Positions 40,837 through 56,440 of a stretch of DNA of 64,000 nucleotides are shown here, piece by piece. The position numbers and the translations under genes are program-made. The notes beneath the pieces are model-generated. The model did no database searches. It had not been told where the DNA came from and saw only the letters and a list, made by a program, of their open reading frames with translations. The DNA lies in IMG/VR virus record IMGVR_UViG_3300031541_000022, positions 41,155 through 105,154 of that record. One strand, given 5' to 3'. Source of the stretch: a virus. The number at the start of each line of letters is the position of its first letter. The first letter of the stretch is position 1.

Positions 40837-41166
40837 ATGCTACAAACAAAGCATAAAGCAAACGATGTGGTAACACTCAAGCTTGTATCAGGTGAAGAAG
40901 TTATTGGTTACTACGTCAGTGAAGATATGGGCGGTGTTACACTGCGCAAACCTGTTGTACCAGTACCAACAGCAGAAGGTAATATGGCTCTTGCTCCATA
41001 CATTATGTCAAGCAACTATCTGCGTGAAGCAGACGGACAAGTTATTTTCAACAAACAGACTGTTATCACAGTTTTGGCAACAGATGAACAGTTCAAGAAT
41101 GCATTTACCCAACAGGTAAGTGGCCTTGATCTTGCTCCAGGTACGGCATCCAAACTGATCGCGTAA
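40837..41166 (+). CDS. Hypothetical protein (Sm-like beta fold possible)
   Basis: VVTLKLVSGEEVIG; start reassigned to ATG 40837. Confidence 0.7.
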   Translation: MLQTKHKANDVVTLKLVSGEEVIGYYVSEDMGGVTLRKPVVPVPTAEGNMALAPYIMSSNYLREADGQVIFNKQTVITVLATDEQFKNAFTQQVSGLDLAPGTASKLIA

Positions 41167-41186
41167 TAAATACTCCGTAAGGAGTA
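41166..41186 (+). promoter_or_regulatory. Late promoter overlapping an SD-sequestering hairpin
   Basis: ATAAATA 41166-41172; TACTCC-GTAA-GGAGTA 41171-41186. Confidence 0.7.
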
Positions 41187-41189
41187 GAC

Positions 41190-42149
41190 GTGAATATACC
41201 AGTTCATCGCAATACTGACAGTCGCTCTTGCGGAGCGTCAACTATAGTTTCAGGACAAAGCAACGTTTTCGTGAACAATCTACTTGCAAGTGTGCAAGGT
41301 GATGGCAACACTCACGGAGGCGGTGCTCTCGGTGCCACAGTTAATGATGGCACCGTTTTCGTCAATAACAAGAAGCTAGTACTCAAAGGCAGCAACGCAA
41401 GTCCAGATGCACTATGCCCGCCACTTGGCCCACCACACTGTAACCCAACCAGTGTAGGTGCTAGTGGCGATGTATTTGCATGTGGAGGTGGTAGCGGCGG
41501 CACTATTGCTGGCAGCCCTGATGAAAATCGTGAGGACCCAACACGTCAAGAAGTGTATGGCGGTCAGAATGAATATCCTGATCCAAATGCAACAGAACCA
41601 ACTCCACCACCAAATGCAGAAGAATCCAAGACTCAAGCAGAGTTTGATACAAGTGGCTTCACAGAGAGCGATCTCGCTGCAATTGAGCAACTGGAAAGTG
41701 ACCCAGACTGGATACGTGAACTTGAAGCAATTGAGGCTCGCTATCCAAACTTTAGTCGTGAAGAACTATACAATACGATTAAAGGCGAAAGTGCATTTAA
41801 TCCTCGTGCACTCAACAACAATTCAGGTGCAAGCGGATATTTCCAATTTATTCCAGACTCAGCACGTGAACTAGGAACAACCACAACGGCTGTTCGAAAT
41901 TCATCTCCTGCAGAGCAATTAAACACTTATGGACGCTATCTTGATCGTTGGAATTATAACCCTGACAATAGTGGACTAGGTATTATGCAAGCTGCACCAG
42001 CATATGCAAACCGTCCACCAAACTATGTGTTGCCAGGATCATACGCGATTGGCGGTCGTGCATGGCAACAGAACCCAGGATGGCGCACAAGTCCAAATGG
42101 ACCGATCACAGTACAGAGTGTGAACGATTATTACAGTAGGCAGAGCTAA
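41190..42149 (+). CDS. PAAR spike-tip domain fused to a lytic transglycosylase (SLT-like)
   Basis: N-terminal PAAR-like repeats with C/H ligands; P/E-rich linker; C-terminal GES.FNP.A.N...ASGYFQF. Confidence 0.8.
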   Translation: MNIPVHRNTDSRSCGASTIVSGQSNVFVNNLLASVQGDGNTHGGGALGATVNDGTVFVNNKKLVLKGSNASPDALCPPLGPPHCNPTSVGASGDVFACGGGSGGTIAGSPDENREDPTRQEVYGGQNEYPDPNATEPTPPPNAEESKTQAEFDTSGFTESDLAAIEQLESDPDWIRELEAIEARYPNFSREELYNTIKGESAFNPRALNNNSGASGYFQFIPDSARELGTTTTAVRNSSPAEQLNTYGRYLDRWNYNPDNSGLGIMQAAPAYANRPPNYVLPGSYAIGGRAWQQNPGWRTSPNGPITVQSVNDYYSRQS

Positions 42150-44488
42150 TGGCTTTTACAGATTTCCCAAATGGCATCGCAGATGTCAATGACTATCTAA
42201 GTGCACAGAACAGTGTTCGTGCAGAACTCACAGGCAGTGTTGCTGACATCAGTCGCTTGGTTGTGAGTGCTGAATTTGACTTCAGCCTCAAGGAAATTAT
42301 CTGTTCCTTGCTAGCTGGCCGCGGTCTATTGCTACCCAACATACAGATTTGTATCAGCCTTAACATCAAGGAACTATTAGGAACACTAGTAGGCACAATT
42401 CAGGACACCCTATACCAAGCACTGCAAGGATTGGACGAGGCATTTGACCGCTTCAACGACCACCTTAAGATTGATGAAGTATTAGGACGTGTGAACAATG
42501 TGCTGGCTGAGGTTACACAGATTGCAAACATGATCAACTTCTGCTCTGCGCCAGTTGATCCTATTCAGATTCCAAATGTTTTGGAAAATGCTTTTGACAG
42601 TTTCCTAGGTGCTGGGCGTGACATTGTTGACCAAATTGGCCAAATCTTTCCAGACGAAATTGGCGGCTGTTTGATTCCAGGTGGCGGCTTTAACCCTAAC
42701 GTGTTCACTGGTGGTATTTTGGGCAAGCTAAGTGATGTTTGGGACGATGTTCTAACTGGCAGCCTCAGCGATGCATTCATCAACAGCATTATTCAAGACA
42801 TTAACACAGTAACAAATAGCATTGACAGCCTTATTGATCAAGAAAATCGTGTCACAGGCACATACGATCAAGGCGGTAGTGAACTACGTGAGTCACCACG
42901 CGAAACACACACTGGCATTGCTGCACTGTTTAACTCACAGGACGAAGGCATCCAGGGTGCAACACGTACAGCCGCAGTCATCCAGGGCGCATATCAACAG
43001 CTAGGCAGCTATCAGGTTGTTGACAGTGACGGCAACGTGTATAACAACATTTTCGAATTGTTCTGTGATGAAGAGCTGTTACGTATTTTGCGTCGCACGC
43101 CAAACCCAAGTCCAGAGATTTCAGAACAGATTCCAGTGTTCAGCTATTGTGGTGAAATTATTGGTTATACTAAGAACATCACACAAGAGAACCCAACACA
43201 AAGTGAAGGCTTGAAACCGGAGACGATTGAGGATCCAGGATTTGATGCTGGCGGCCTACCAACCAACCCTGTCAATGAAGCTATTGCACAGGGAGAAGCG
43301 GCAGGTGGCGGCACAGTTGTTACTAATGTCAACAACACCACAAACATTGACGGTGCTACCCTCTTTGTAAACAGCGAAACAGAGCTTGTCAACAGCGGTG
43401 CATCAGCTGGTCAGCAAGTGTTTCGTAATGACAACGGTGTGACATATTTGCGTAACCAAGAGCCAGAAACCAATACTCTAGCTGACTATGAGATTGTTGG
43501 TGGTGGCGGCGGTGGCGACACCTTGGGCTCATTCCTAACTGAAGTTAACGAAAATGTAGGCAACGGCTTGCTGGCGCGCAGCACAAACACGCCATTTTAC
43601 CGCACGATTACTGGCACAGCAAACCAGATCACAGTGCAGAATGGCAACGGACAAGCTGGCAACCCTACACTCAGCATTACAAGCAACCCAACCATTCCAG
43701 GCAACGACTCCATGGTCGTGCCAAGTGGTACAACTGCACAACAAGGTGCACCAGCTGACGGTGGCTTCCGCTTCAACACCACCACAGGACAGTTTGAAGG
43801 ACGTCAAGGTGGTGCTTGGCAAGCGTTTGCAACAGGCGGCGGAGTTGTAGATGGTGACAACATTGGTGGCGGACCATTCGAAGTCTTCAAGCAAAATGCT
43901 AGTGGCATACTGGAATTCCGTACATTCCAGACAACTGGTGGTATTAGCCTAGGTGTTGCTAGTGATGTGCTCACCATTGGTGACAGTCTAACAGCATCCA
44001 GCCTAGGAACTGGCAGCGATGTGTTTAAGCAACGCCAGAGTAACAATTTTGAATTTCGCTCACTCACAGCAGGCACAGGCATTCAGCTCACACAAACTGC
44101 AAACGAAATCGAGATTATTGCAAACGCAATGGGCAACGAAGGCAGTGTCACCACATCAAACGCTATACCAACTGAGGTCTTGTTCAACAGTCTACGCCTA
44201 ACACCAGACAATAACAAGACATGGTTTGTTGAGGTCACTGCGGTTGCAAACAGAACTGACAGCGTAGACGCAACAGCTATCAAGATCGAAGGTTTGGTTG
44301 ACAATGCTAGCGGAACCGTTACTATTGTAGGCACAGCAGGCAACAAAACCACATACAATGGTACTGCATCTACTTCAAACTATGACCTGCTACTGGACGT
44401 TGTATCCAATGAATTTAGGGTTCGCGTACAGGGCGATGCTGGTCACTCTGTTGATTGGACAGTGCGTCTAGACTTTATTGAAGCCTAG
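42149..44488 (+). CDS. Large tail/baseplate structural protein with fibre-like C-terminal part
   Basis: Helical N-terminal half, G/T-rich beta C-terminal half; follows the PAAR gene. Confidence 0.65.
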   Translation: MAFTDFPNGIADVNDYLSAQNSVRAELTGSVADISRLVVSAEFDFSLKEIICSLLAGRGLLLPNIQICISLNIKELLGTLVGTIQDTLYQALQGLDEAFDRFNDHLKIDEVLGRVNNVLAEVTQIANMINFCSAPVDPIQIPNVLENAFDSFLGAGRDIVDQIGQIFPDEIGGCLIPGGGFNPNVFTGGILGKLSDVWDDVLTGSLSDAFINSIIQDINTVTNSIDSLIDQENRVTGTYDQGGSELRESPRETHTGIAALFNSQDEGIQGATRTAAVIQGAYQQLGSYQVVDSDGNVYNNIFELFCDEELLRILRRTPNPSPEISEQIPVFSYCGEIIGYTKNITQENPTQSEGLKPETIEDPGFDAGGLPTNPVNEAIAQGEAAGGGTVVTNVNNTTNIDGATLFVNSETELVNSGASAGQQVFRNDNGVTYLRNQEPETNTLADYEIVGGGGGGDTLGSFLTEVNENVGNGLLARSTNTPFYRTITGTANQITVQNGNGQAGNPTLSITSNPTIPGNDSMVVPSGTTAQQGAPADGGFRFNTTTGQFEGRQGGAWQAFATGGGVVDGDNIGGGPFEVFKQNASGILEFRTFQTTGGISLGVASDVLTIGDSLTASSLGTGSDVFKQRQSNNFEFRSLTAGTGIQLTQTANEIEIIANAMGNEGSVTTSNAIPTEVLFNSLRLTPDNNKTWFVEVTAVANRTDSVDATAIKIEGLVDNASGTVTIVGTAGNKTTYNGTASTSNYDLLLDVVSNEFRVRVQGDAGHSVDWTVRLDFIEA

Positions 44489-44501
44489 TAAAACTTTTTG
44501 G

Positions 44502-44530
44502 TTGACAGGCAAAGCGTATTGCCATATAGT
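44502..44530 (+). promoter_or_regulatory. Sigma70-like (early) promoter
   Basis: TTGACA-17-TATAGT, preceded by CTTTTTGG as at 12010. Confidence 0.7.
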
Positions 44531-44565
44531 CTTGGTATGCGTATGAAACATCAAGGACTATCGCT

Positions 44566-44868
44566 ATGAGATCCAAAATTTGTGATGACGGCCAGCGTCG
44601 CATTATCGCCAAGGTGATAGTGCCTATGGGCGTCCAAGAAATCACTACCTTTGCTCTGTCAAATCCCCGCTTCCTGCATGATGACGAAGCAATGAACACC
44701 TTCACAAACTTCAACAAACGTCAGCTTTTCAATGTCGCTAAGGAGAGCGTTGCTTTCCGTGGTGACAGCATGGCGACTGCCAATGACATTGTTGCAGAAA
44801 TGTGGACTCCCCGGCAGATCGAACGTGCTCGGAAGCACGTTGAAGAACTTTTCCCAGAGGTCGACTAA
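44566..44868 (+). CDS. Hypothetical early protein
   Basis: SD AAGGA. Confidence 0.7.
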   Translation: MRSKICDDGQRRIIAKVIVPMGVQEITTFALSNPRFLHDDEAMNTFTNFNKRQLFNVAKESVAFRGDSMATANDIVAEMWTPRQIERARKHVEELFPEVD

Positions 44869-45122
44869 TGTATTGGGTCGTTATATGGCTCAGTGGTGAA
44901 GCTGCAATGGTGATGCCAGGATCAGAGAAATACTATTTTGAAGATCCGGCTGTCTGTGAAGAAATTCGTGCAGCAATCGACCAAGACATTCGTGATGGTG
45001 TTGTTGAAATTGACGGCGACTTGTATGTTGTCAACCCAGACGGCGAAAATCTCGAATGGCAGGAATGGGAAGTTACCTGCGAAACAGAACACTATAACAT
45101 CGGAGATCAAAAGAATGGTTGA
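44868..45122 (+). CDS. Hypothetical protein
   Basis: TAATG coupling. Confidence 0.65.
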   Translation: MYWVVIWLSGEAAMVMPGSEKYYFEDPAVCEEIRAAIDQDIRDGVVEIDGDLYVVNPDGENLEWQEWEVTCETEHYNIGDQKNG

Positions 45123-45522
45123 TACTGTTACCACGCTGATTGAGAAAGCAATCACTACAGACAACGACTCTGAAGCTCTTGCTTGTATCAAGATGGCGCG
45201 GAGACAGTGGAAAGGCAGTGGCAGCGTTGTGATGCCGCGCCGCCCGGCTAACAAGCCTGAAGACATTCCTGTGAACACTATCAAGATGTCTGAACACCTT
45301 AAGGTTTGTCAAAAATACGAACAAGCGCGGGACATTTTGATCAAAGACAACAACCGCCTTGGCGCAGAAAACGATACACTGCGCAACGCTGCAATCAAGC
45401 AAGGTATTGACGATCTTGAGATTGAAGTTCTGCAGACACGCATTAAGTCAGTAACCAAACAAATAGCATTTATCGCAATTCTTGGTTGGGCTGTTGCACT
45501 CTTTATGATGGTATTCCTATGA
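45115..45522 (+). CDS. Coiled-coil protein with C-terminal TM helix
   Basis: Start reassigned to ATG 45115; LIEKAI...EALA N-terminus. Confidence 0.6.
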   Translation: MVDTVTTLIEKAITTDNDSEALACIKMARRQWKGSGSVVMPRRPANKPEDIPVNTIKMSEHLKVCQKYEQARDILIKDNNRLGAENDTLRNAAIKQGIDDLEIEVLQTRIKSVTKQIAFIAILGWAVALFMMVFL

Positions 45523-45740
45523 TTACGACAGATAGTATTGTTAAGGACCAAGGCCGTAGTCAGGCCGACATTCTCATTGATTTGGGATCGTTCCTAATCT
45601 GGGCTATGGATGAAGGCGCTCGGTATGGCGACACTAGTGCTGAGACTGCCGTTGATGCGTTTCAGGAATTACTTGGTTGGGACGAGGCAACAATGACTAA
45701 ATTTGCCTCAGTTATACGAGGCAAATTCGATCATGAGTAG
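45519..45740 (+). CDS. Hypothetical protein
   Basis: ATGA coupling. Confidence 0.55.
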   Translation: MITTDSIVKDQGRSQADILIDLGSFLIWAMDEGARYGDTSAETAVDAFQELLGWDEATMTKFASVIRGKFDHE

Positions 45741-46068
45741 ATACAGCCTTTTTATCGACGACGAACGCGACCCACCCCGTAATGACGGGCGCAACTGGGT
45801 TGTGGCTCGTGACTGGGAGGCCGTCATGATGATGCTGCGCATTCATGGAATGCCTGGGTTCATCAGCTTTGACCATGATCTTGGTATCGATAATCACAGT
45901 GGTCATGACATTGCTAAGTTTTTGATTGAACTTGACATGGGCGGTGACAGTGACTTTGAAATTCCCGAGGAATTTGACTTCTACGTACACAGTCAAAATC
46001 CAGTTGGAAAGGCAAATATCGAAGGATTGTTGCGCAATTATTTGCAATTCCGCGAAAAAACTACTTGA
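45733..46068 (+). CDS. Cyclic-phosphate-processing receiver-like domain protein
   Basis: LFIDDERDP, ISFDHDLG, VHSQNPVG. Confidence 0.7.
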   Translation: MSRYSLFIDDERDPPRNDGRNWVVARDWEAVMMMLRIHGMPGFISFDHDLGIDNHSGHDIAKFLIELDMGGDSDFEIPEEFDFYVHSQNPVGKANIEGLLRNYLQFREKTT

Positions 46069-46093
46069 CATTACCAAGGCTTTTTGCTAGATA
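46065..46093 (+). promoter_or_regulatory. Sigma70-like promoter
   Basis: TTGACA-17-TAGATA with GCTA; 22/26 nt identical to 13349-13374. Confidence 0.6.
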
Positions 46094-46123
46094 TGGTTTG
46101 TTGAAATTACCCATGAGGCAGAC

Positions 46124-46681
46124 ATGTTTAAATTTGCAATCTTTACTGCACAAATAGCAGCGATTGCAGGAGTGGCAACAATCGGCGCACGAGCCGAGCC
46201 ACTTGAAATCACTATCACCTCCGTAGCAATGGAAGAAACTGTCGAGCTCGATGCAGCTGAACATTACTGCATGACGGAAGCTGTCTACTTTGAAGGCGGC
46301 AATCAATCTCTAGACGGTAAATTTGCCATCGCAAACGTGGTTATGAATCGTGTTGCGAGTAGCAATTTCCCTGATACAATTTGTGGTGTTGTGCACCAAG
46401 GACCACTTGACGGCTCTGCAATAAGTCTTCACCGCTGTCAGTTCAGTTATTACTGTGATGGCAAAAGTGACAAGATGCCCAAGCTTAACAACACACTTGA
46501 AGAAGCTGCGGTTGAGTGGTCCAGCATCATTGCTGAGATCGTAATGCATGGTGAAGTTGAAGACAACACATACGGCAGCACGTACTACCATGCTTATTAT
46601 GCAGATCCATTTTGGAACGATGTCTATGAGCAAGTTGCAGTAGTTGACGCACACTTGTTTTACGTGCATTCTCCTCGCTAA
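46124..46681 (+). CDS. Cell-wall hydrolase (SleB / Hydrolase_2-like) with N-terminal signal/TM
   Basis: C..EAVYFE...VANVVMNRV...FP.TICGVV.Q..CQFS, YYHA.Y..P.W, HLFY. Confidence 0.85.
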   Translation: MFKFAIFTAQIAAIAGVATIGARAEPLEITITSVAMEETVELDAAEHYCMTEAVYFEGGNQSLDGKFAIANVVMNRVASSNFPDTICGVVHQGPLDGSAISLHRCQFSYYCDGKSDKMPKLNNTLEEAAVEWSSIIAEIVMHGEVEDNTYGSTYYHAYYADPFWNDVYEQVAVVDAHLFYVHSPR

Positions 46682-46736: not shown

Positions 46737-46753
46737 TTCTAAAGAGGATAGCA

Positions 46754-48549: not shown

Positions 48550-48976
48550 AAATTCGGTGTATACCGTTACACCGCCGGACCTCACCCTTAACACGATTGG
48601 TCCCAGTGTCTTGCTCTTGGGCATTACATATGATGAGAGCAAAGCATACTCAGATGTATATGAAAAACTTTTTCCTGAAGTTGAAATCACATTCTTTGTG
48701 AGTGAGACTGGCTTCAATCCAAATGTTGCTCCTTGGTTCCGCGCAGTTGCAGGAATGGCGAGCAGCATATTTGTAAACCTAGACAACATCACAGCAGAGG
48801 AAGTATTCCTTGCTATGCAAGCTGAACATGAGAACCGTGCTATGGTTTTCTGGATCAGCCAAGAGCGAACCTATCCAGCGATGGTGAGTTTACTCAACAG
48901 TTACCAATACCAAGTTTTCAATAACGTAGAAGAGATTGAATCCTTCTTGCTAAAAGAGCATGGTAAAAACTCTTGA
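48539..48976 (+). CDS. Hypothetical protein
   Basis: Coupled ORF. Confidence 0.7.
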   Translation: MKTKNSVYTVTPPDLTLNTIGPSVLLLGITYDESKAYSDVYEKLFPEVEITFFVSETGFNPNVAPWFRAVAGMASSIFVNLDNITAEEVFLAMQAEHENRAMVFWISQERTYPAMVSLLNSYQYQVFNNVEEIESFLLKEHGKNS

Positions 48977-49001
48977 CATTCGGGTGCAGACATACTACAC
49001 T
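48973..49001 (+). promoter_or_regulatory. Sigma70-like promoter for infC-rpsU
   Basis: TTGACA-17-TACACT. Confidence 0.7.
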
Positions 49002-49040: not shown

Positions 49041-49562
49041 ATGAAACAACAGCGAGAAATTATACTCGCTAACCGTGACATTCGATTCAAGGAAGTTCGT
49101 TTAGTTACGGAAGCTGACAGCAAGGTGCTGTCAACGAATGAAGCATTGAGGCAAGCTGAAGACGCTGGCTTAGATCTTATTTTGATCAACGCTAGCGCCA
49201 AGCCTCCTGTTTGTAAGATCTTGGAATTGAACAAGTATCGTTACGAACAGAAACTAAAAGCGAAAGAAGCTGCACGGGCGCAGCGTGAATCCCGTACCAC
49301 TATCAAAGAGGTACAATTCAAGCCCAATATCGATCAACACGACTTCGAAACGAAGTGTAAGAAAATTGCTAAGTTTATCGACAAGGGCAACAAGGTTAAG
49401 GTTTTAATTCAATTTCGTGGTCGCGAACGCCAACACACTGATTTGGGATATGACATCCTAGAAAGAGTATTCCAGGAAGTTGACGGTATTGAATACGATG
49501 CAAAACCCTCTTTTGCTGGTAACCGTATTACCGCAATGTTAAAAGGAACCAAGGATGGCTAG
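49041..49562 (+). CDS. infC: Translation initiation factor IF-3 (possible ATT start at 49035)
   Basis: [24 protein letters not shown]...KYRYE, KEVQF.P.ID.HDF..K, KVK....FRGRE. Confidence 0.92.
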
Positions 49563-49800
49563 GCCAACACCAAATCAAAAGAAAACACAAAGCGGACCGC
49601 GCGGCTCAAGAGTCGAAGTCCGTGATAACAATGTAGGGCAGGCAATGCGCCGCCTAAAGAAGATCCTCCAACAGGAAGGTGTCTTCAAAGAGATGCGAGA
49701 ACGCCGTTACTTCGAAAAGCCAAGCATGACACGCAAAAAGGCTAAAGCAGCGGCTCGCAAGCGTTGGCTTAAGGAACAGGCCAAGCGCGAAAACTGGTAA
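49555..49800 (+). CDS. rpsU: 30S ribosomal protein S21
   Basis: [17 protein letters not shown]....EG...E...R.YFEKPS...K..A.RKR. Confidence 0.88.
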
Positions 49801-49811
49801 TAAATACCAGC

Positions 49812-49864
49812 AGGATGCCTTAGGGGTCCTATAAAAATCTTGCTTTTAAAAGGAGATTAAGATG
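49812..49864 (+). ncRNA. ROSE-like RNA thermometer in the hsp20 5' UTR, behind late promoter ATAAATA 49800-49806
   Basis: 5' hairpin 49812-49830; 3' hairpin AATCTTGCTT/AAGGAGATT pairs the UUGCU motif with the SD and leaves G49842 bulged. Confidence 0.75.
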
Positions 49865-50290
49865 ACAAAAGCAATTAACACACTAACTCTACCGAGCTTC
49901 CTCAATGACAGAGGTATTGGATTTGACAACTTTCTTGACACATTCGAGACACTCACTCCAAGCGGTGGATACCCTCCATACAACGTGATTAAAGACGGCG
50001 ACGACGAATACACTATCGAAGTTGCAGTTGCTGGCTTTACACAAGACGATCTGGAGATCACACAGGACGGCAAAAAGCTAATCCTATCTGCAAACAAGCC
50101 AGAGTTCGAAGGCGAAGAGCCTGCATACTTGCATCGCGGCATCAGCTCACGTAGCTTTAAGCGTGAGTTTGCACTTGCAGAACATGTAACAGTCACTGGT
50201 GCTGACCTCAAAGATGGCATCCTCAAAGTTTCATTACTACGTGAATTGCCAGAAGAAATGAAGCCACGCACCATCGCTATCGGCAAATAA
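49862..50290 (+). CDS. hsp20: Small heat-shock protein (Hsp20/IbpA-like)
   Basis: YPPYNV, IEVAVAGF, YLHRGIS.RSF.R.F.LA, A.L.DGIL. Confidence 0.93.
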   Translation: MTKAINTLTLPSFLNDRGIGFDNFLDTFETLTPSGGYPPYNVIKDGDDEYTIEVAVAGFTQDDLEITQDGKKLILSANKPEFEGEEPAYLHRGISSRSFKREFALAEHVTVTGADLKDGILKVSLLRELPEEMKPRTIAIGK

Positions 50291-50360
50291 TTACTGAGCG
50301 ATCATCAGTACCACTGTGGGAGGTGGCTACCACTACCTCCCACAACCAAAAGAGGGCAAT

Positions 50361-50660
50361 ATGTCAGCAGACGCAGACGTAGTCGAAAAAACACAAACCA
50401 AACTCAAGCGTCCACGTAAATGGGCGGTGATTGTACATAACGATGACGTAACTCCAATGGACTTTGTTGTTGGGTTGCTCTTTTACGTATTTAAAATGAA
50501 CCTTGATGAAGCTACAGGACTGATGCTCAAGGTACATCAAGAAGGCCAAGCAGTGGCTGGCATCTTCTCCCATGAGGTTGCAGAACAAAAGCTTGCGGAA
50601 GCCAATGTGTTCATCCGTTTGAGCAACATGCAACTGAAGTTGACTATGGAAGAAGAATAA
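50361..50660 (+). CDS. clpS: ClpS N-degron adaptor
   Basis: VIVHNDDVTPMDFVV...A..LML.VH..G.A..G; start at ATG 50361. Confidence 0.9.
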   Translation: MSADADVVEKTQTKLKRPRKWAVIVHNDDVTPMDFVVGLLFYVFKMNLDEATGLMLKVHQEGQAVAGIFSHEVAEQKLAEANVFIRLSNMQLKLTMEEE

Positions 50661-50661
50661 C

Positions 50662-50687
50662 GCTCGCATAAATATACACATGCGAGC
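50662..50687 (+). promoter_or_regulatory. Late promoter in the loop of a hairpin that sequesters the ATG; leaderless
   Basis: GCTCGCAT(50662-69)...ATGCGAGC(50680-87) perfect 8-bp IR; ATAAATA 50668-74, N5, ATG. Confidence 0.7.
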
Positions 50688-52077
50688 CTTAGAATTTTTA
50701 CTATCAGAAGAACAGGTGACTGAATCGCGCGGCGTAAGTGCAAGACAGCCTGGTGACGTATATGTCAACCCAAACAGCCCTGACGATACACTCACTGTTA
50801 TCGATATCAAATTTGTGCGACCAGAAAACGACTACGCATTTGACAGTCGTGAAGAACTGGAAGGCGCACTAGACCAAGTCATCCCCTCAGACATGAAGCG
50901 TGTAAATGACAACGCAGCTAACAGATTAAGTAAGGCTGCAATTGTTGCTGAGTTTGAACGTCCTGATGGTAGCAAGGAAGCCCATGTCCGTTATGCCAAG
51001 GATCTTATGTCTATGCATAACAAATGGAAGGCTCCAAATGGTTATAAATTCCAAGCAGCAATTGAAACTGAAAGCTTGCCAATCAAGCCAAGCGACATCA
51101 TTCCAGATGAACAGCCACGCAAATTGCTAAAATTGCTTGATGTTATCGATCAAAACCTACGCACCAAGCTAGCAGGCACTCCATATGAACATATGGGTGA
51201 CTTGATTGAACAGGTAATTGACAGCGCAGCAGGTAGCAACAAACCTATTACATTTGAAAACCGTAACCAAGCAGGCATCATTGCAAAATATGCTGGCGAG
51301 TATGCAGGTGTGGTTGCGTTGCTTACCGATAACCTACAAAACCTCAGCAGTGCTGAAATTGAAGAACGTTATGGCGTAAGCAACCTGTCAGATAGTCGTG
51401 TTGTGTTTCCACAAGACAGCACAGGTATGTTGATTGATAGCTATCTCATTACTCCCGAAGACAAGCGTATTGGCGTGAGCAGCAAAATGTTTAAAGCTGG
51501 TGGTGCAGCTAGCAGCCTACTAGGTATCTACAAGATCATGCCACCTGACGTTGCAAAACAATATCCTAAAGGTGCAACTATCATTAAGGACTTGTCTGTG
51601 ATGCCTAGCTTCTCAGTTAGCCCTAAAAATGCTAGTAACCTTGGCCCAGTCATATTGGCACGCCAAATGGGAATTATCAGCGCAGAAGACATTGAAGAGA
51701 TCGAACGCCTATCCCGCCACGAACAAAATCCAGAGGTAATGCAAAGCCATCGACTCAAGCAAATTATTGCTAACCAAGGTGTAAACCCTGGCACTATGAG
51801 TCGACCAGACTACTCTGTCTATAACCATCTTATTGCGGCGATTGTCAACCTCATGGTATCACGAGTCAATAACGAACCTGAATTTGTTGATGTGATTAAC
51901 GCAACACTACGTGAAAACGGATATGTGCAGGTGCTAACCAAGGTTGGCCTCAAGGGTAACCAGGTTACGTTTACCTATTATGGCAAGTTGCCAGACGACA
52001 ATCAACCATTCATCTACAACAAAAATTATTTCGCTACAGGCAATAAAGGACGTATTGGTTTCAAACTCAAGAAGTGA
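50680..52077 (+). CDS. Hypothetical probable head-packaged protein
   Basis: MRALEFL...VTE/SRG N-terminus; late promoter. Confidence 0.75.
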   Translation: MRALEFLLSEEQVTESRGVSARQPGDVYVNPNSPDDTLTVIDIKFVRPENDYAFDSREELEGALDQVIPSDMKRVNDNAANRLSKAAIVAEFERPDGSKEAHVRYAKDLMSMHNKWKAPNGYKFQAAIETESLPIKPSDIIPDEQPRKLLKLLDVIDQNLRTKLAGTPYEHMGDLIEQVIDSAAGSNKPITFENRNQAGIIAKYAGEYAGVVALLTDNLQNLSSAEIEERYGVSNLSDSRVVFPQDSTGMLIDSYLITPEDKRIGVSSKMFKAGGAASSLLGIYKIMPPDVAKQYPKGATIIKDLSVMPSFSVSPKNASNLGPVILARQMGIISAEDIEEIERLSRHEQNPEVMQSHRLKQIIANQGVNPGTMSRPDYSVYNHLIAAIVNLMVSRVNNEPEFVDVINATLRENGYVQVLTKVGLKGNQVTFTYYGKLPDDNQPFIYNKNYFATGNKGRIGFKLKK

Positions 52078-52078
52078 T

Positions 52079-52501
52079 ATGTATACAGGCTTTGTTTATA
52101 AATGGACATACATTCCTACCTCTCATTATTATATTGGGATCCATAAAGGACACATCGACGATGGATATATTGGTTCTGGAAAAAAATTTCAAGCAAAATG
52201 GAAATTAACAGAAGCCAAAGATTGGGTTCGTGATATCCTCTTCAAATGTGAATACCAAGACTGCATCGACTTTGAAGGGAATTCCGTAACAGAAGAAACA
52301 CTCAAAGATACACTTTGTTTAAATTTACAGCCTGGCGGCGGCAAATATTATGAGCCATATGGATTCACGCATAAAGATAAAAGTTATCGCACAAAACCAC
52401 AACAGGTTACAATAAATGGAACGACTTATCCGACACGTATGATGGCAATAAAACGTTTGAAAGTTTCTTTTGCTGAACTTGACGAACTAATAGAATATTA
52501 A
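52079..52501 (+). CDS. Short Seg-like GIY-YIG endonuclease
   Basis: GFVYKWT....YYIGIHKG...GYIGSG...CLNL; start at ATG 52079. Confidence 0.7.
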   Translation: MYTGFVYKWTYIPTSHYYIGIHKGHIDDGYIGSGKKFQAKWKLTEAKDWVRDILFKCEYQDCIDFEGNSVTEETLKDTLCLNLQPGGGKYYEPYGFTHKDKSYRTKPQQVTINGTTYPTRMMAIKRLKVSFAELDELIEY

Positions 52502-52603
52502 GAATACAATTTAGCAAATCGTTACTGAGCTATGCACACAGATGCAGGACGGTATGTTTAATTTGCAGTTGTGAATCCCCTGACTTTATTGTAAATATGT
52601 ATG

Positions 52604-52626
52604 TGCAGGTGCAGCATTTAGCTGCA
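52604..52626 (+). promoter_or_regulatory. TGC-rich operator-like site upstream of the microprotein operon
   Basis: TGC-AGGT-GCAG plus overlapping IR TGCAGC-N5-GCTGCA; TAAATA at 52592-97. Confidence 0.4.
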
Positions 52627-52654
52627 TTTATTTTTGAGCACAAGGAATAAATCA

Positions 52655-52792
52655 ATGTCATTTCTAAAATCACTATTCGTAAACAAAAAAGCCGCACGAA
52701 AAGACATTCGTCGTTACGTAGAGGCAGAATACGCTCCAGTAGAGCGTGAAGCGGCTTATGACCGCCTCATCCGTGAAGCAGGCTTTTTATAA
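52655..52792 (+). CDS. Microprotein A (45 aa)
   Basis: SD AAGGA; MSFLKSLFVNKKAARKDIRRYVEAEYAPVEREAAYDRLIREAGFL. Confidence 0.75.
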   Translation: MSFLKSLFVNKKAARKDIRRYVEAEYAPVEREAAYDRLIREAGFL

Positions 52793-52953
52793 TGGCCCTG
52801 CTTCGTTATTTTAAAGACGTGTTTGGTGACGAACGTTGTATGTCTCGTCGCCAGCGCGATATCGAAAATTACCTAGCCCAATCCGTGGACTTGGTAGATC
52901 TAGAACGCCGCCAACGCGAACTAGATCGTAAGGGAGCGTACCGTTGGCTATAA
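52792..52953 (+). CDS. Microprotein B (53 aa), DUF3563-like
   Basis: TAATG coupling; ...NYLAQSVDLVDLERRQRELDR... resembles the recalled xYL/DLE motifs of DUF3563. Confidence 0.75.
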   Translation: MALLRYFKDVFGDERCMSRRQRDIENYLAQSVDLVDLERRQRELDRKGAYRWL

Positions 52954-53075
52954 TCACGGACTTCCTAACATCATTGCGACGCGCTATCTATGCAGCGAAC
53001 TACCTAGAAGGCGCAACAACTCGACAGGAGTTCGAGCAGCGCGTCGCAACACTACAAGAACAAGGATACATCTAA
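52944..53075 (+). CDS. Microprotein C (43 aa)
   Basis: TTG start after SD AAGGGAG; NYLEGATTRQEFEQR echoes microprotein B. Confidence 0.65.
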   Translation: MAIITDFLTSLRRAIYAANYLEGATTRQEFEQRVATLQEQGYI

Positions 53076-53194
53076 TGAGCTTTTGGAAAAAGATTGAACG
53101 CCTGGGCTACTTGCGCGCCGCAGGTGAAATGAAGCGAAACGGTTACCCCGACCTCGCTGCGGAAATGGAAAAGCAAGCACGTAACTTGAAGTGA
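53075..53194 (+). CDS. Microprotein D (39 aa)
   Basis: TAATG coupling; MSFWKKIERLGYLRAAGEMKRNGYPDLAAEMEKQARNLK. Confidence 0.7.
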   Translation: MSFWKKIERLGYLRAAGEMKRNGYPDLAAEMEKQARNLK

Positions 53195-53219
53195 GCCTTG
53201 CGCTCACTTCCTTCTTTTT
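53191..53219 (+). terminator. Terminator closing the microprotein operon
   Basis: GTGAGC-CTTGC-GCTCAC followed by a pyrimidine/T tract. Confidence 0.6.
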
Positions 53220-53248
53220 GATAAGTAATGGTGAAGAGAGGTAACACT

Positions 53249-53803
53249 ATGTCTATCACCAATTACGAAGGCAAAATACTTATTGCATCACCACAAATCA
53301 CATCCACAATCTTTCGTAAGAGTGTGGTGTATATTCATACACATAACGAGAAAGAAGGGGCAATTGGTGTAATGTTAAACGTCCCTGTTGAGATTGAAGC
53401 GGCTGAAAGATTTTCTCATGATATCAATTGGCCATACCCAGACCGTATCTACCATGGCGGTCCAGTAGACTACCGCATTGGCTACGTTATTCATTCAAAT
53501 GATTATGCACGTGAGTCGTCCATCAAAATCAACGACGATATGAGCTATACAAGTGGACGTCATATTGTAGACGACATCAACCGCGGTGTTGGTCCAAACG
53601 ACTATATCCTAGCAACTGGCTATTGTGGTTGGAAGCCAGGTCAACTTGAAAATGAAGTAGATAGCGGCATGTGGGTAGCAGTTGACTATGACAAAGACTT
53701 CTTCTTCCAGAACCTTGATCGCGAGCACGGACACGAATTTGCAATCAATGTTGCCGCAGAAAATAAAACAAATCAGCTTCTAGATATGGTTGACACAGCC
53801 TGA
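53249..53803 (+). CDS. YqgE/AlgH (DUF179)-family protein
   Basis: GKILIA.P....FRKSVV....H...GAIGVMLN, YHGGPV, G..GW..GQL..E....W. Confidence 0.85.
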   Translation: MSITNYEGKILIASPQITSTIFRKSVVYIHTHNEKEGAIGVMLNVPVEIEAAERFSHDINWPYPDRIYHGGPVDYRIGYVIHSNDYARESSIKINDDMSYTSGRHIVDDINRGVGPNDYILATGYCGWKPGQLENEVDSGMWVAVDYDKDFFFQNLDREHGHEFAINVAAENKTNQLLDMVDTA

Positions 53804-53842
53804 TCACTCTGCTAAAACAATAGTCGCAGTAGGGAGCGACAA

Positions 53843-54001
53843 ATGTTTGAAGTTATCATCCAAAAGAACGATGGAACCAAAGAAACGTGGGATTGTCTCA
53901 CGGAAATACAGGCTGAGTGTGTGTTCTTTCGCGCACGTATGATGAACACCACAGCACAAGTGCAAATCAACGAGGTGATTGAGTTTGACATCATTAGCTG
54001 A
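53843..54001 (+). CDS. Untracked 52-aa hypothetical protein
   Basis: SD GGGAG; MFEVIIQKNDGTKETW... Confidence 0.55.
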   Translation: MFEVIIQKNDGTKETWDCLTEIQAECVFFRARMMNTTAQVQINEVIEFDIIS

Positions 54002-54422
54002 ATCATTTGGCTATGTGCCTATGCGTGTTGATCTCATTATGACTCTGCTCCGTATCCAAGCAGAAAAGGTATTAGATCAATCCAAAAACCACACAGTATT
54101 TGAGCGAATTGAATATTTGACCTATATTGAAAAACAGCGTATTGAACCCGATCGATTTCAAAATGTTTATATGACGGTTTTGTTCATACAGTATTCAAAA
54201 CCACATCTCAAGCGTATTCAAAAATTGACAGCAGAAGATCTTGCTCAAATGTCAAAATCATCTGTATATACAGCAAACTCTATTATTAAACTTACTGGCA
54301 GGAATCCGGTTTATCTTAAAGACCGTGATCTCGGAACTCGTGGTAATATTGACGCCGAACAAAGCCGCGATATTTTTAACGCAGACCTCAATAAGTGGAT
54401 GAAACACTTCCAGGCACGATAA
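53979..54422 (+). CDS. Hypothetical protein (start uncertain)
   Basis: Fills the gap on the coding strand. Confidence 0.55.
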   Translation: MSLTSLAESFGYVPMRVDLIMTLLRIQAEKVLDQSKNHTVFERIEYLTYIEKQRIEPDRFQNVYMTVLFIQYSKPHLKRIQKLTAEDLAQMSKSSVYTANSIIKLTGRNPVYLKDRDLGTRGNIDAEQSRDIFNADLNKWMKHFQAR

Positions 54423-54457
54423 ATACTAGACCCAATAGGGGGAAAAGGAGATTTATC
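54418..54457 (+). promoter_or_regulatory. Late promoter complementary to the sequence just before the ATG
   Basis: GATAAAT(54418-24) pairs with ATTTATC(54451-57); ATAAATA 54419-25. Confidence 0.5.
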
Positions 54458-54649
54458 ATGTTTGACGCAATTTGGGCTTGGCTAATGGCTCGCTGGGCAG
54501 AACGCACAACCTGGGATGGTACAGTAATCATCGGTCTAGGTGTTGTGGTGCTTGTATTCCAATCACTACTACCTTGGGCAGCATGGGGCGCAATCGCTTA
54601 CGGTGTTTGGACCTTACTCAAGTCAGAAGGCATCCTTCCTAAGGAATAA
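54458..54649 (+). CDS. Small two-TM membrane protein
   Basis: SD AAGGAG; ERTTWDG followed by two hydrophobic helices. Confidence 0.7.
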   Translation: MFDAIWAWLMARWAERTTWDGTVIIGLGVVVLVFQSLLPWAAWGAIAYGVWTLLKSEGILPKE

Positions 54650-54650
54650 G

Positions 54651-54755
54651 ATGAAACCTGGCACTTATAAAAAACTGAAGCACGAATTCGGACAGCTCAT
54701 TTTCTGGGCGATTGTGTTCGGAATCGTGCTTCTTGGTCTTGCATTGTTTGCATAA
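54651..54755 (+). CDS. 34-aa single-TM peptide
   Basis: SD AAGGA; basic N-terminus plus hydrophobic helix. Confidence 0.55.
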   Translation: MKPGTYKKLKHEFGQLIFWAIVFGIVLLGLALFA

Positions 54756-54763
54756 ATAATTGC

Positions 54764-54979
54764 ATGGCAGCAAACGGTATATCAACACTAGAATTTAAGC
54801 GTGACCGTCAGGACGCAAAGCTTGCACTTGCGGCAGTTGATCGTCTGGCCACAGGCCGCCGTAGCAATCCTGATCCAACACAACTACCAACACGCTACGG
54901 CGTTGGTAGCAACGATCCAAACGATATTGTAAATAACCCTAACGCAGGCGGACTTGTTACAGGTCGTTCTTGGACATAA
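54764..54979 (+). CDS. Small late protein (leaderless)
   Basis: ATAAATA(54752-58)-N5-ATG; MAANGISTL... Confidence 0.7.
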   Translation: MAANGISTLEFKRDRQDAKLALAAVDRLATGRRSNPDPTQLPTRYGVGSNDPNDIVNNPNAGGLVTGRSWT

Positions 54980-54984
54980 AGTTC

Positions 54985-55015
54985 TTGACTTAACTGCTCA
55001 CTTCATGTATAAATA
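54985..55015 (+). promoter_or_regulatory. Composite early/late promoter for tmRNA
   Basis: TTGACT-17-TATAAA overlapping TATAAATA (55008-15). Confidence 0.7.
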
Positions 55016-55020
55016 GGACT

Positions 55021-55320
55021 GTATTGATGACGTTCATCATGACGTAGGACGGACCGGGGTTCAATTCCCCGCACCTCCACCAAAATCTGACTGGTGCTTG
55101 ACATCATCGAGGTAGTGCTCGTGAACAACTGGATGAAGATTACTATGGGGGTGAGTTTGGGATCGACGTATGCTGATAGGTGAAAAGAGATGCCCGGATC
55201 TAAGCTCGGTTAACGCGAAGAAACTTACAAATGCAAACGAAAACTTTGCACCTACAGGATATGCCCTAGCGGCTTAACCTAGTGGCGCCCGGGGAGAGCG
55301 TAGCAACAGAATCTCCTCAT
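55021..55320 (+). ncRNA. ssrA: Circularly permuted two-piece tmRNA
   Basis: Acceptor piece first (T-arm CGGGG-TTCAATT-CCCCG, CACCTCC-A-CCA ending 55082), 64-nt spacer, then coding piece GGGGGTG from 55147 (G3-U70 pair); tag ANENFAPTGYALAA* at 55233-55277. Confidence 0.92.
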
Positions 55321-55328
55321 TTTCTATC

Positions 55329-55523
55329 ATGCATACAGATTACTATGTTTATGAATATCTAAGAGAAGACGGTTCTCCGTATTATGTAGGCAAGGGCCGT
55401 TGTGGACGTCACAAAGAACGTCACAATGTTCCGATTCCACCAGAAGATCGTATCAAAGTAGCAATGCATGTAGAGGTCGTTACAGAAAGTTTCAACCATC
55501 TTAGAGCACCTTTATGCGAATAG
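55329..55523 (+). pseudogene. Truncated GIY-YIG endonuclease
   Basis: YYVYEYLREDGSPYYVGKG.G.R, then loses similarity and stops at 64 aa. Confidence 0.7.
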
Positions 55524-55741
55524 AAATTAACGGCACGGAATACCCAGTGTCAATGAAATGGGAACAGGATGACACTATCTGCCATTTCGTTCACATAGAC
55601 GGTGAAATGCATGAATTAGATATTCCGTCCAAGATAAACAACGGCGGCAAGACGTACATAACGTCAGTACAATTTAGAGAAATACTTGCCCAACACATCC
55701 AAAAAGCCCTTGACTCTCGTGCTCGTAACGGGCGGTCGTGA
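55514..55741 (+). CDS. Hypothetical protein
   Basis: Coupled ORF. Confidence 0.55.
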   Translation: MRIEINGTEYPVSMKWEQDDTICHFVHIDGEMHELDIPSKINNGGKTYITSVQFREILAQHIQKALDSRARNGRS

Positions 55742-56090
55742 TTACAAAGATGTAGGCACAGTATTTGATTGCCTCACAACACTTGACGCACAGTTTGAGC
55801 GTATAATTGTCGTACATGGTGATGCACCAGGTGCAGACAGTCTTGCATACAAAGTCTGTGATGAAGTCGGTATTGAACAATCTCGCAACCCCGCTGCATG
55901 GAAAAAGTACCAAAGGGCATCTGGTCCGATACGCAATACGCTGATGCTGGACCTGTTCAACATCGACCTTGTTATAGCTTTCCCAGGAGTTACAGGCACA
56001 GCAGACATGTGTGAACAAGCTGAGGCAAGAGGAATACCTGTAATGACTCCAGAGGATTTATTGCCGGTTAAGACAGGGGTGGATACCTAA
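55686..56090 (+). CDS. SLOG-superfamily (DUF2493-like) protein
   Basis: VLVTGGRDY, VHGDA.GAD, A.W......GPIRN.ML, AFPG..GT.DM. Confidence 0.8.
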   Translation: MPNTSKKPLTLVLVTGGRDYKDVGTVFDCLTTLDAQFERIIVVHGDAPGADSLAYKVCDEVGIEQSRNPAAWKKYQRASGPIRNTLMLDLFNIDLVIAFPGVTGTADMCEQAEARGIPVMTPEDLLPVKTGVDT

Positions 56091-56143
56091 TAATCCCGCG
56101 CTGACCAACGGTAAGCCAGCATACACACACAGGAGACACAGAC

Positions 56144-56335
56144 ATGTCAAATCAAAACGCATATGAAGTGCGACTTAAAATACTTGAACTTGCGCAAAGC
56201 CAACTCATCAGTGAGGCAATGGCAAAAACACAAAAAGCAGATGCTAAGTGGGAAGCGGATCAAATCAGCTTTCCAACTGAAGATCAGGTACTTGAGGTTG
56301 CAAAGAAATTTGATACTTTCGTAAGCGGCAAATAA
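56144..56335 (+). CDS. Small hypothetical protein
   Basis: ACACACACAGGAG ribosome-binding leader; YEVRLKILELA...FV. Confidence 0.75.
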   Translation: MSNQNAYEVRLKILELAQSQLISEAMAKTQKADAKWEADQISFPTEDQVLEVAKKFDTFVSGK

Positions 56336-56359
56336 AAACAAAATATCGTCGTTAAACAC

Positions 56360-56390
56360 AGGTGTTGACTGAAACCAGTCAACACCTTTC
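56360..56390 (+). terminator. Rho-independent terminator
   Basis: AGGTGTTGACTG-AAAC-CAGTCAACACCT 12-bp stem followed by TTC. Confidence 0.75.
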
Positions 56391-56395
56391 CTATC

Positions 56396-56426
56396 TGTGA
56401 CTTCTTATAAATATAGTAAAGTCACA
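56396..56426 (+). promoter_or_regulatory. Late promoter in the loop of an 8-bp hairpin upstream of the tail-fibre RBS
   Basis: TGTGACTT...TATAAATA(56406-13)...AAGTCACA. Confidence 0.65.
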
Positions 56427-56440
56427 AGGGGAAATGTGAA

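What the first reader, a model, noticed from the sequence alone, without database searches (positions are those of the whole stretch)
41166..56434. Late promoters embedded in RBS/AUG-sequestering hairpins
Seen at four loci. (a) TACTCC-GTAA-GGAGTA hides the SD of the PAAR-transglycosylase gene. (b) GCTCGCAT/ATGCGAGC hides the AUG at 50680. (c) GATAAAT/ATTTATC flanks the RBS at 54458. (d) TGTGACTT/AAGTCACA, extendable over AGGGG, precedes the tail fibre. In each case the predicted late +1 (6 nt after TAAATA: 41178, 50680, 54431, 56419) removes the 5' arm. Established: T4 uses this device to stop early read-through transcripts from translating late genes such as lysozyme e and soc. Case (b) combines it with a leaderless start, which I do not recall being described.
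Basis: partly seen in the sequence, partly recalled or inferred. Interest (0 to 1): 0.7.

Follow-up and report, generated by a model that had tools for sequence, protein, structure and literature searches.

The report
Late promoters inside ribosome-site-masking hairpins
In this uncultured giant phage, about one late promoter in five sits inside an RNA hairpin that would hide the next gene's ribosome site or start codon on transcripts arriving from upstream; this is the timing trick known from phage T4 lysozyme, and here it also appears at genes whose late mRNA seems to have no leader.

Summary
All four hairpins exist at the stated coordinates and appear in the minimum-energy fold of read-through RNA. 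The predicted late start (6 nt after TAAATA) removes the 5' arm in each.

The genome encodes a T4 gp55-family late sigma. ATAAATA is enriched and strand-biased, with T at -1 and A at +1.

- Opening the ribosome site costs 6-9 kcal/mol more in long RNA than in late RNA (T4 gene e, same metric: 12-14).
- Differences of 8 kcal/mol or more occur at 4 of 22 SD-led promoter genes against 0-1 of 53 control genes.
- Relatives' loci give a similar enrichment (20/114 vs 33/484).

**By site:**
- **(a):** strongly supported. 13 of 16 relatives keep an SD-masking hairpin with changed arms (own-versus-chimera p=0.0004).
- **(c), (d):** the exact stems are not conserved, but about half the relatives mask the site with different arms.
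- **(b):** clade-limited, no compensation. Two other gene families in relatives carry the same leaderless, AUG-masking design, one with a G-C, G.U, A-U series.
- Two stronger unlisted sites lie at 29344-29390 and just upstream of the window.

**Verdict:** a new member of a known kind. This scan noted the device before in at least 65 other genomes. The leaderless variant is the only possibly new part. No expression data exist.

The parts
41160..41192 (+). Site (a). ATAAATA box 41166-41172. Inner hairpin UACUCC 41171-41176 / loop GUAA / GGAGUA 41181-41186 (SD GGAG 41181-41184). Outer helix 41160-41164 / 41188-41192 covers the GTG start at 41190. Predicted late +1 is 41178, in the loop.
   Evidence: long-minus-late 8.4 kcal/mol, z 2.2; 13 of 16 relatives keep an SD-masking hairpin; own vs chimera p 0.0004
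41190..42149 (+). PAAR plus lytic transglycosylase (SLT) gene, controlled by site (a)
   Evidence: PHROG baseplate hub, transglycosylase, PAAR; the homologue carries Pfam PAAR_motif and SLT
50662..50687 (+). Site (b). GCUCGCAU 50662-50669 / AUGCGAGC 50680-50687, ATAAATA 50668-50674 partly in the loop. Predicted +1 is the A of ATG 50680 (leaderless).
   Evidence: (difference 6.3, z 3.1)
50680..52077 (+). 465-aa conserved protein of unknown function, the gene behind site (b)
   Evidence: 64 homologues, no family; conserved gene order IF3-S21-HSP20-ClpS-gene
54411..54464 (+). Site (c). CAGGCA 54411-54416 and GAUAAAU 54418-54424 pair with AUUUAUC 54451-54457 and UGUUUG 54459-54464. ATAAATA 54419-54425, +1 54431, SD 54446-54450, ATG 54458.
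   Evidence: (difference 8.0, z 2.6)
56360..56387 (+). 12-bp terminator-like hairpin just upstream of site (d). A terminator stands at the same place in relatives L002 and L008.
56388..56443 (+). Site (d). UUCCU 56388-56392 and UGUGACUU 56396-56403 pair with AAGUCACA 56419-56426 and GGGAA 56429-56433. TATAAATA 56406-56413, +1 56419, ATG 56441 (tail fibre).
   Evidence: (difference 8.6, z 1.6)
29344..29390 (+). Unlisted, stronger site. An 18-bp interrupted hairpin CAUUUCC-CCAGGG-AUAUU / AAUAU-CUCUGG-GGAAAUG masks the SD and ATG 29388. TAAATA 29367-29372, +1 29378.
   Evidence: difference 11.6, z 4.8; relatives L179 and L180 have different arms in the same architecture
6767..6796 (+). Second leaderless-type site in the window with a masked AUG. 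UACUGUGAU / AUUAUGGUA surrounds TATAAATA 6778-6785; ATG 6791 (virion structural protein).
   Evidence: (difference 3.9, z 1.1)
55008..55277 (+). TATAAATA 55008-55015 followed by a permuted tmRNA. The Rfam model starts at 55020, 1 nt from the predicted +1 at 55021. This is an independent check of the box-to-start spacing.

Best explanation
These are T4-type translational gates. The phage's gp55-like sigma directs host RNA polymerase to (A)TAAATA boxes and transcription starts 6 nt downstream.

At a subset of late genes, roughly one in five, the box is built into a hairpin. Its 5' arm is the box, the 5-nt spacer or the sequence just upstream. Its 3' arm is the Shine-Dalgarno sequence and/or the start codon.

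RNA made from upstream promoters contains both arms, so the ribosome site is closed. RNA started at the gene's own late promoter lacks the 5' arm and is open. Translation of these genes is thereby tied to late-promoter firing.

Shown here: the sequences, the predicted folds, enrichment over controls, conservation in relatives, and the presence of the sigma factor. Inferred: the start sites, the read-through, and the effect on translation.

At leaderless-type sites such as (b) the same hairpin would keep the AUG silent while it is internal.
For: Promoter.
- gp55-family sigma in the same contig.
- ATAAATA occurs 20 times on the + strand and 2 on the - strand, against 10.4 expected.
- The logo of 32 sites has A at -12, T at -1 (18/32) and A at +1 (22/32).
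- Nine TAAATA-N5-ATG cases.
- The tmRNA model starts 1 nt from the predicted +1.

Masking.
- All four hairpins are in the MFE of long RNA and absent from late RNA.
- Opening costs 6.3-8.6 kcal/mol more in long RNA, z 1.6-3.1.
- T4 gene e in the same metric gives 11.9-14.3.

Enrichment.
- A difference of 8 or more occurs at 4/22 promoter genes against 0-1/53 controls.
- In relatives' loci a difference of 6 or more occurs at 20/114 against 33/484, Fisher p 7e-4.

Conservation.
- (a): 13 of 16 distinct relatives keep an SD-masking hairpin with different arms: UACUCC/GGAGUA, UAUCUC/GAGAUA, CUCCU/AGGAG, UACUUCUA/UAGGAGUA, CCUGAUAAA/UUUAUUAGG. Loops are GUAA, GUGA or AUAA.
- (a): each genome's own upstream and downstream halves interact better than chimeras, -8.4 vs -6.3 kcal/mol, p 0.0004.
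- (a): 81% of cells are paired, against about 50% in slid registers.
- (c) and (d) families: 3 of 6 members each mask strongly, with unrelated arms.
- Site 29367: relatives use other arms.
- Leaderless class: the MDTLLI family shows G-C, then G.U, then A-U through a synonymous Asp codon. The MLVNEII family keeps UAGCAU/AUGCUA although the spacers vary.

Context.
- There is no terminator between the upstream ORF and sites (a), (b) or (c).
- (a) follows a ribonucleotide reductase / glutaredoxin / Macro / NUDIX block.
- The T4 mechanism is documented in PMC3014915, section 29.
Against: - There are no transcript ends or translation data. +1 is inferred from the T4 spacing.
- Single-site z-scores are modest, and a pairing-probability measure was not significant.
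- Column-wise covariation on the MAFFT alignment of (a) is not significant against shuffles (52/500), and RNAalifold found no consensus.
- The hairpins in the (a) family are about as stable on the antisense strand (p 0.28), so the strand under selection is not shown.
- (b) is absent wherever codon 2 is AGA or AAA, without compensation. An internal AUG without an SD might be silent anyway.
- The exact stems of (c) and (d) are lost in the nearest relative, G001.
- (d) sits behind a terminator-like hairpin.
- The transcripts that read into (b) may themselves start at the late box before HSP20 (49801). In that case the gate there separates a gene's own promoter from read-through, not early from late.
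- Controls are mostly genes inside operons with coding sequence upstream, which may bias them towards less structure.
Confidence: 0.68

Rival explanations
1. Translational coupling. The hairpins do not block translation. They make it depend on ribosomes that finish the upstream ORF. The stop codon of that ORF lies in or next to TAAATA, so a terminating ribosome would melt the 5' arm and expose the site.
For: In the (a) family the upstream stop is the TAA of TAAATA or lies directly before it. In (c) the stop is the TAA of the box. In (b) the ClpS stop lies 2 nt before the 5' arm.
Against: T4 gene e has the same geometry: the nudE stop TAA lies about 3 nt before the 5' arm. Even so, long transcripts there give about 100-fold less lysozyme (PMC3014915). 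Coupling does not explain why the promoter start falls just where the 5' arm ends. Site (d) and site 29367 have no abutting ORF.
Confidence: 0.12
2. Coincidence of composition. A purine-rich SD or an AUG finds a pyrimidine-rich or CAU partner by chance near an AT-rich box, and the reader picked the best 4 of about 31 promoters.
For: Site z-scores are only 1.6-3.1. The null means for pairing are high. The (c) stem is seven A-U/G-C pairs with a 26-nt loop. The (c) and (d) stems are lost in G001. CAU before AAAUA gives 3 bp with AUG for free.
Against: Enrichment over natural controls in this genome and in relatives. Chimera tests give p 0.0004 for (a) and 0.009 across 29 leaderless families. Masking recurs with different arms in homologous positions.
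Confidence: 0.1
3. A DNA-level or antisense role. The inverted repeats around the box act on the double helix (cruciform, promoter opening, protein binding), or they terminate antisense transcripts.
For: The hairpins are equally stable on both strands. The scan tool flags (a) and (b) as terminator-like on the - strand, because the complement of TAAATA supplies a T-run.
Against: The arms differ widely between relatives, which argues against a sequence-specific binding site. The 3' arm follows the SD or AUG rather than the box. G.U pairs appear in the sense RNA, and there is a G-C, G.U, A-U series. No - strand genes lie nearby.
Confidence: 0.06
4. RNA end protection or processing. The hairpins stabilise the 3' end of the upstream message, or they are nuclease sites.
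For: They sit at gene boundaries. (d) is next to a terminator-like stem.
Against: (a) and (b) have no U-tract on the + strand. The 3' arm always overlaps the next gene's initiation region, which an end-protecting stem does not need.
Confidence: 0.04

Closest known systems
Phage T4 gene e (lysozyme) leader, and the same class at soc, 49 and I-TevI (Uzan and Miller 2010, PMC3014915, section 29)
   Same: A gp55-type TATAAATA box lies inside or at the 5' arm of a hairpin that pairs the SD and/or AUG, so late transcripts lack the 5' arm. Site (a) matches T4 e closely. The arm begins with the last TA of the box plus a pyrimidine-rich 5-nt spacer complementary to GGAG. The upstream ORF stops just before it. 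The gene encodes a cell-wall-degrading enzyme.
   Different: The phage lineage is distant. The sigma is 297 aa and 30% identical to T4 gp55 over 70 residues, and its nearest cultured relatives are the PA5oct group, Phosso and Atu_ph07 at 44-47%. The box lacks the first T of the T4 consensus. The stems are weaker (6-9 against 12-14 kcal/mol). Nothing is tested experimentally. Some sites are leaderless.
Leaderless mRNAs that start at the A of AUG, such as lambda cI from pRM and the many leaderless mRNAs of Caulobacter (PMC8459731; PMC10491246)
   Same: In (b), and in eight other sites of this contig, the box is placed so that +1 is the A of ATG, with no SD. The start is always ATG. The N5 spacing is kept in 39 of 86 relatives of gene (b).
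   Different: Here the leaderless AUG is also paired to sequence upstream of +1. My searches of the held library found no description of this for leaderless genes.
Earlier notes of this scan on other genomes (e1-1995364, e1-1941034, e1-194354, e1-5352716 and others)
   Same: The same device, a late promoter inside a ribosome-site-masking hairpin, was reported in giant, Ackermannviridae and T4-related phages.
   Different: They concern other lineages. None of the listed notes mentions leaderless starts. I did not test those notes.

Membership tests
T4-type late-promoter-embedded translational gate (e, soc, 49, I-TevI class) | A gp55-type late sigma is present, and a TATAAATA-like box lies about one helical turn before the start | tested here: met
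   phrog_12791 E 1e-86 and phrog_234 E 1.5e-22 for G000:5771-6664. Motif enrichment, strand bias and logo.
T4-type late-promoter-embedded translational gate (e, soc, 49, I-TevI class) | The hairpin pairs the Shine-Dalgarno sequence and/or the start codon | tested here: met
   MFE folds and opening energies
T4-type late-promoter-embedded translational gate (e, soc, 49, I-TevI class) | The late transcript starts inside or after the 5' arm and therefore lacks it | tested here: inconclusive
   True for the inferred +1, 6 nt after the box. That spacing is supported by A at +1, by the TAAATA-N5-ATG cases and by the tmRNA 5' end. No transcript ends were mapped.
T4-type late-promoter-embedded translational gate (e, soc, 49, I-TevI class) | Transcripts from upstream promoters read into the gene | tested here: inconclusive
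   No + strand terminator lies before (a), (b) or (c). A terminator-like stem lies before (d). A sigma-70-like box at 48973-49001 lies upstream of the IF3 to (b) block. No RNA data.
T4-type late-promoter-embedded translational gate (e, soc, 49, I-TevI class) | Long transcripts are translated far less than late transcripts | not testable with these tools
   Needs reporters or toeprinting
T4-type late-promoter-embedded translational gate (e, soc, 49, I-TevI class) | The structure is maintained in relatives through changes in the arms | tested here: met
   (a): although the column-wise shuffle test was not significant. (b): not met outside one clade. (c) and (d): masking recurs but the stems are not conserved.
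Leaderless mRNA | +1 coincides with the A of an ATG start, there is no SD, and the spacing is conserved | tested here: inconclusive
   Nine TAAATA-N5-ATG sites, all ATG, none with an SD. 39 of 86 relatives of (b) keep N5. The TSS is not mapped.
Intrinsic (rho-independent) terminator on the coding strand | A G+C-rich stem followed directly by a U-run | tested here: not met
   (a), (b) and (c) have no + strand U-run after the stem. They are flagged only on the - strand.

The most novel reading that the evidence does not exclude
In this phage group a late promoter, a leaderless start and a masking hairpin are fused into one roughly 26-nt element (XXXCAU-AAAUA-N5-AUGXXX). The AUG is usable only as the 5' end of the RNA made by the gene's own promoter, and is actively paired whenever it is internal. 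That would be a transcript-origin filter for leaderless genes. It implies that internal SD-less AUGs behind the A/U-rich box would otherwise be translated in the host, which the permuted tmRNA and the nearest phage relatives suggest is an alphaproteobacterium.
Probability: 0.35. Interest if true: 0.6.

Novelty: new member of a known kind. Interest (0 to 1): 0.35.

Why it matters
- It extends T4's translational gating of late genes to a distant, uncultured giant-phage lineage that carries its own IF3, S21 and tmRNA.
- It gives a practical rule for annotating starts and transcription units in these genomes: box, +6, start.
- It flags a testable variant in which leaderless late genes are also gated.
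- If the variant is confirmed, it would show that phages need to silence internal SD-less AUGs. That bears on how SD-independent initiation works in their hosts.

Tried and rejected
- Megablast and tblastn against cultured phages found nothing for the region, for gene (b) or for the PAAR domain. No cultured model for these loci was found.
- A pairing-probability measure (fraction of ribosome-site bases paired to upstream bases) did not separate the sites from shuffles. I replaced it with opening energy.
- Column-wise counts gave 81% paired but no significant covariation.
- The strand-asymmetry test (G.U against C.A) was not significant.
- The sigma-70 promoter scan was at chance level, 30 found against 34 expected, so early promoters cannot be assigned.
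- GATAAATA...TATTTATC pairs in two divergent intergenic regions upstream of the window look like hairpins. They are better read as late boxes on both strands.
- Most tail-fibre N-terminal hits were internal fibre repeats and useless for site (d).
- I considered and rejected an extended upstream promoter element as the reason for the conserved TCGC in (b). The logo shows no conservation at -13 or -14.


Full report
**Source and setting.** The window is bases 41155-105154 of a 110-kb IMG/VR virus record. CheckV rates it about 30% complete, so it comes from a very large phage; GC is 44%. Nearly all genes are on the + strand. Cultured phages gave no DNA or protein match for the region.

**Observation.** In RNA that starts 60 nt upstream of the predicted late start, each is part of the minimum-energy fold and covers the Shine-Dalgarno sequence and/or the start codon. 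RNA that starts at the predicted +1 lacks the structure.
- Site (a) has a second, outer helix (41160-41164 / 41188-41192) that also pairs the GTG start.
- Site (c) is extended by CAGGCA/UGUUUG across the ATG.
- Site (d) is extended by UUCCU/GGGAA across the SD.

**Are the boxes late promoters?**
- The contig encodes a 297-aa protein of the "sigma factor for late transcription" family (phrog_12791, E 1e-86). It also matches the T4 gp55 family (phrog_234, E 1.5e-22).
- Its nearest cultured relatives are the Pseudomonas PA5oct group, Sinorhizobium Phosso and Agrobacterium Atu_ph07, at 44-47% identity.
- ATAAATA occurs 20 times on the + strand and twice on the - strand, against 10.4 expected, mostly just before gene starts.
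- A logo of 32 sites shows A at -12, TAAATA at -11 to -6, T at -1 (18/32) and A at +1 (22/32). Nothing is conserved further upstream.
- Nine sites have TAAATA-N5-ATG with no SD.
- The Rfam permuted-tmRNA model begins at 55020, 1 nt from the +1 predicted for TATAAATA 55008-55015.
- All of this fits the T4 rule of a TATA box about one turn before the start (PMC2988020). The start sites are still inferred, not measured.

**More than chance?** For 31 candidate promoters I computed the free-energy cost of opening the ribosome site (-13 to +3) in long RNA and in late RNA. I compared long RNA with 100 shuffles of the upstream part.

| Site | Long minus late (kcal/mol) | z |
|---|---|---|
| (a) | 8.4 | 2.2 |
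| (b) | 6.3 | 3.1 |
| (c) | 8.0 | 2.6 |
| (d) | 8.6 | 1.6 |
| TAAATA 29367 (unlisted) | 11.6 | 4.8 |
| Box 4.5 kb upstream of the window (unlisted) | 11.1 | 3.9 |

- Most other promoters show nothing, so the device concerns a subset.
- T4 gene e, the validated case, gives 11.9-14.3 in the same metric.
- Among 53 SD-led genes of this contig without a box, a difference of 8 or more occurs in 1 (pseudo-start at 18) or 0 (at 28), against 4 of 22 SD-led promoter genes.
- In relatives' loci, with the window excluded, a difference of 6 or more occurs at 20/114 promoter genes against 33/484 controls (Fisher p 7e-4). A difference of 10 or more occurs at 6/114 against 5/484 (p 0.0085).
- Gene calls there were crude, and controls mostly have coding sequence upstream. 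The size of the effect is therefore approximate.
- A softer pairing-probability measure was not significant.

**Site (a).** I collected 16 distinct homologous leaders that carry the box.
- Thirteen keep a hairpin whose 5' arm is the last TA of the box plus the 5-nt spacer (or, in two, sequence around the box) and whose 3' arm is, or in one abuts, the SD.
- The arms differ: UACUCC/GGAGUA, UAUCUC/GAGAUA, CUCCU/AGGAG, UACUUU/GGAGUA, UACUUCUA/UAGGAGUA, CCUGAUAAA/UUUAUUAGG. Loops include GUAA, GUGA and AUAA.
- Several sequences add an outer helix that pairs the start codon (L107: CACUGCAU/AUGCAGUG).
- Three relatives lack the hairpin.
- Each genome's own upstream and downstream halves interact better than chimeras of different genomes: -8.4 against -6.3 kcal/mol, permutation p 0.0004.
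- On the MAFFT alignment 81% of cells pair, against about 50% in slid registers. Column-wise covariation is not significant against shuffles, and RNAalifold found no consensus because registers shift.
- The hairpins are equally stable on the antisense strand.
- The upstream ORF ends in or at the box, as nudE does before T4 e.
- The upstream block encodes ribonucleotide reductase, glutaredoxin, Macro and NUDIX proteins. No terminator intervenes.
- The gene encodes a PAAR domain fused to a lytic transglycosylase.
- This is the best-supported site and a close copy of the T4 lysozyme arrangement.

**Sites (c) and (d).**
- The (c) stem is identical in L008 but broken in G001.
- The (d) stem is not conserved in any relative.
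- Among box-bearing homologues, 3 of 6 in each family mask the site strongly, with unrelated arms. For (c): L258 UAGUCUC/GAGACUA and L259 CCUUUGC/GCAAAGG. For (d): L183 (difference 11.9) and L014 (8.8).
- A terminator stands upstream of the tail-fibre promoter in the window, L002 and L008, so the gate at (d) would act only on terminator read-through.
- Site 29367 behaves in the same way. L179 uses UGCGCU/AGCGCA and L180 uses CUAAUU/AAUUAG.

**Site (b) and the leaderless variant.**
- Gene (b) has 64 homologues. About 90 loci were fetched.
- The ATAAATA-N5-ATG arrangement is kept in 39 of 86. Others have N4 or N7 spacing, or an SD-led leader. So the leaderless layout is a conserved alternative, not an accident.
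- The hairpin is present only where codon 2 is CGA (window, L002, L012, L008, L009, L014; TCGCAT is invariant while flanks and spacer vary).
- It is absent where codon 2 is AGA or AAA, with no compensation. This may be a single evolutionary event.
- Among 60 distinct leaderless-type sites in this genome and its relatives, 18% have z above 2.
- With one representative for each of 29 families, own halves still beat chimeras (p 0.009, with (b) represented twice).
- Two other gene families carry the same design. MLVNEII keeps (C)UAGCAU/AUGCUA(G) in six diverged members, with one G.U arising from a synonymous Leu change. MDTLLI shows G-C, G.U and A-U at one pair through a synonymous Asp codon.
- Work on leaderless initiation indicates that leader length and start-codon accessibility matter (PMC8459731). 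The hairpin may therefore be partly redundant, or it may silence SD-independent use of the AUG behind the A/U-rich box.
- My searches of the held library found no description of this combination.

**Rivals.**
- **Translational coupling** is plausible on geometry. It is weakened by T4 e, which has the same geometry yet is blocked.
- **Chance** remains possible for (c) and for the exact stem of (d).
- **A DNA-level or antisense role** is not excluded by energetics. It fits poorly with arms that follow the SD or AUG and vary between relatives.

**Verdict.** The device is known (PMC3014915). This scan has already reported it in at least 65 other genomes. The leaderless version is the only possibly new element.

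Noticed in passing
window 50680 and loci L002-L098: The same conserved 465-aa gene is expressed in relatives from three layouts: leaderless (ATAAATA-N5-ATG, 39 of 86), near-leaderless (N4 or N7), or with a 19-26-nt SD-bearing leader behind the same box. This is a natural experiment on switching between leaderless and SD-led starts.
   Followed up: partly
window 55008-55277: Permuted (two-piece) tmRNA, Rfam RF04321 at 101 bits, lies directly behind an exact TATAAATA box. The model start is 1 nt from the predicted +1. The alpha-type tmRNA hints at an alphaproteobacterial host.
   Followed up: partly
window 49041-50660 and L008-L015: The IF3, ribosomal protein S21, HSP20 and ClpS genes form a block that keeps its order in all close relatives. 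A sigma-70-like TTGACA-17-TACACT lies at 48973-49001, just before IF3.
   Followed up: no
G000:C1:5771-6664 (35 kb upstream of the window): A 297-aa gp55-family late sigma, about 110 residues longer than T4 gp55. The extra N-terminal part has no Pfam match.
   Followed up: partly
window 41164-41172, 54420-54425 and homologous sites in relatives: The TAA inside TAAATA often serves as the stop codon of the upstream gene, so stop, late promoter and the 5' arm of the hairpin overlap within about 12 nt.
   Followed up: partly
genome 5649 and 13291 (window -35506 and -27864): Divergent intergenic regions hold GATAAATA on one strand and its complement about 25-50 nt away. These are probably back-to-back late promoters rather than hairpins.
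   Followed up: no
window 41190-42149 versus L003, L011: The PAAR domain is fused to a lytic transglycosylase here and in L009, L012 and L015. In G001 and L011 it is a separate protein of 99-115 aa.
   Followed up: no
window 52077-53228: This gap in the long-ORF map holds several very small called genes in relatives (DUF3563, YjiS-like). Another first-reader note covers it.
   Followed up: no
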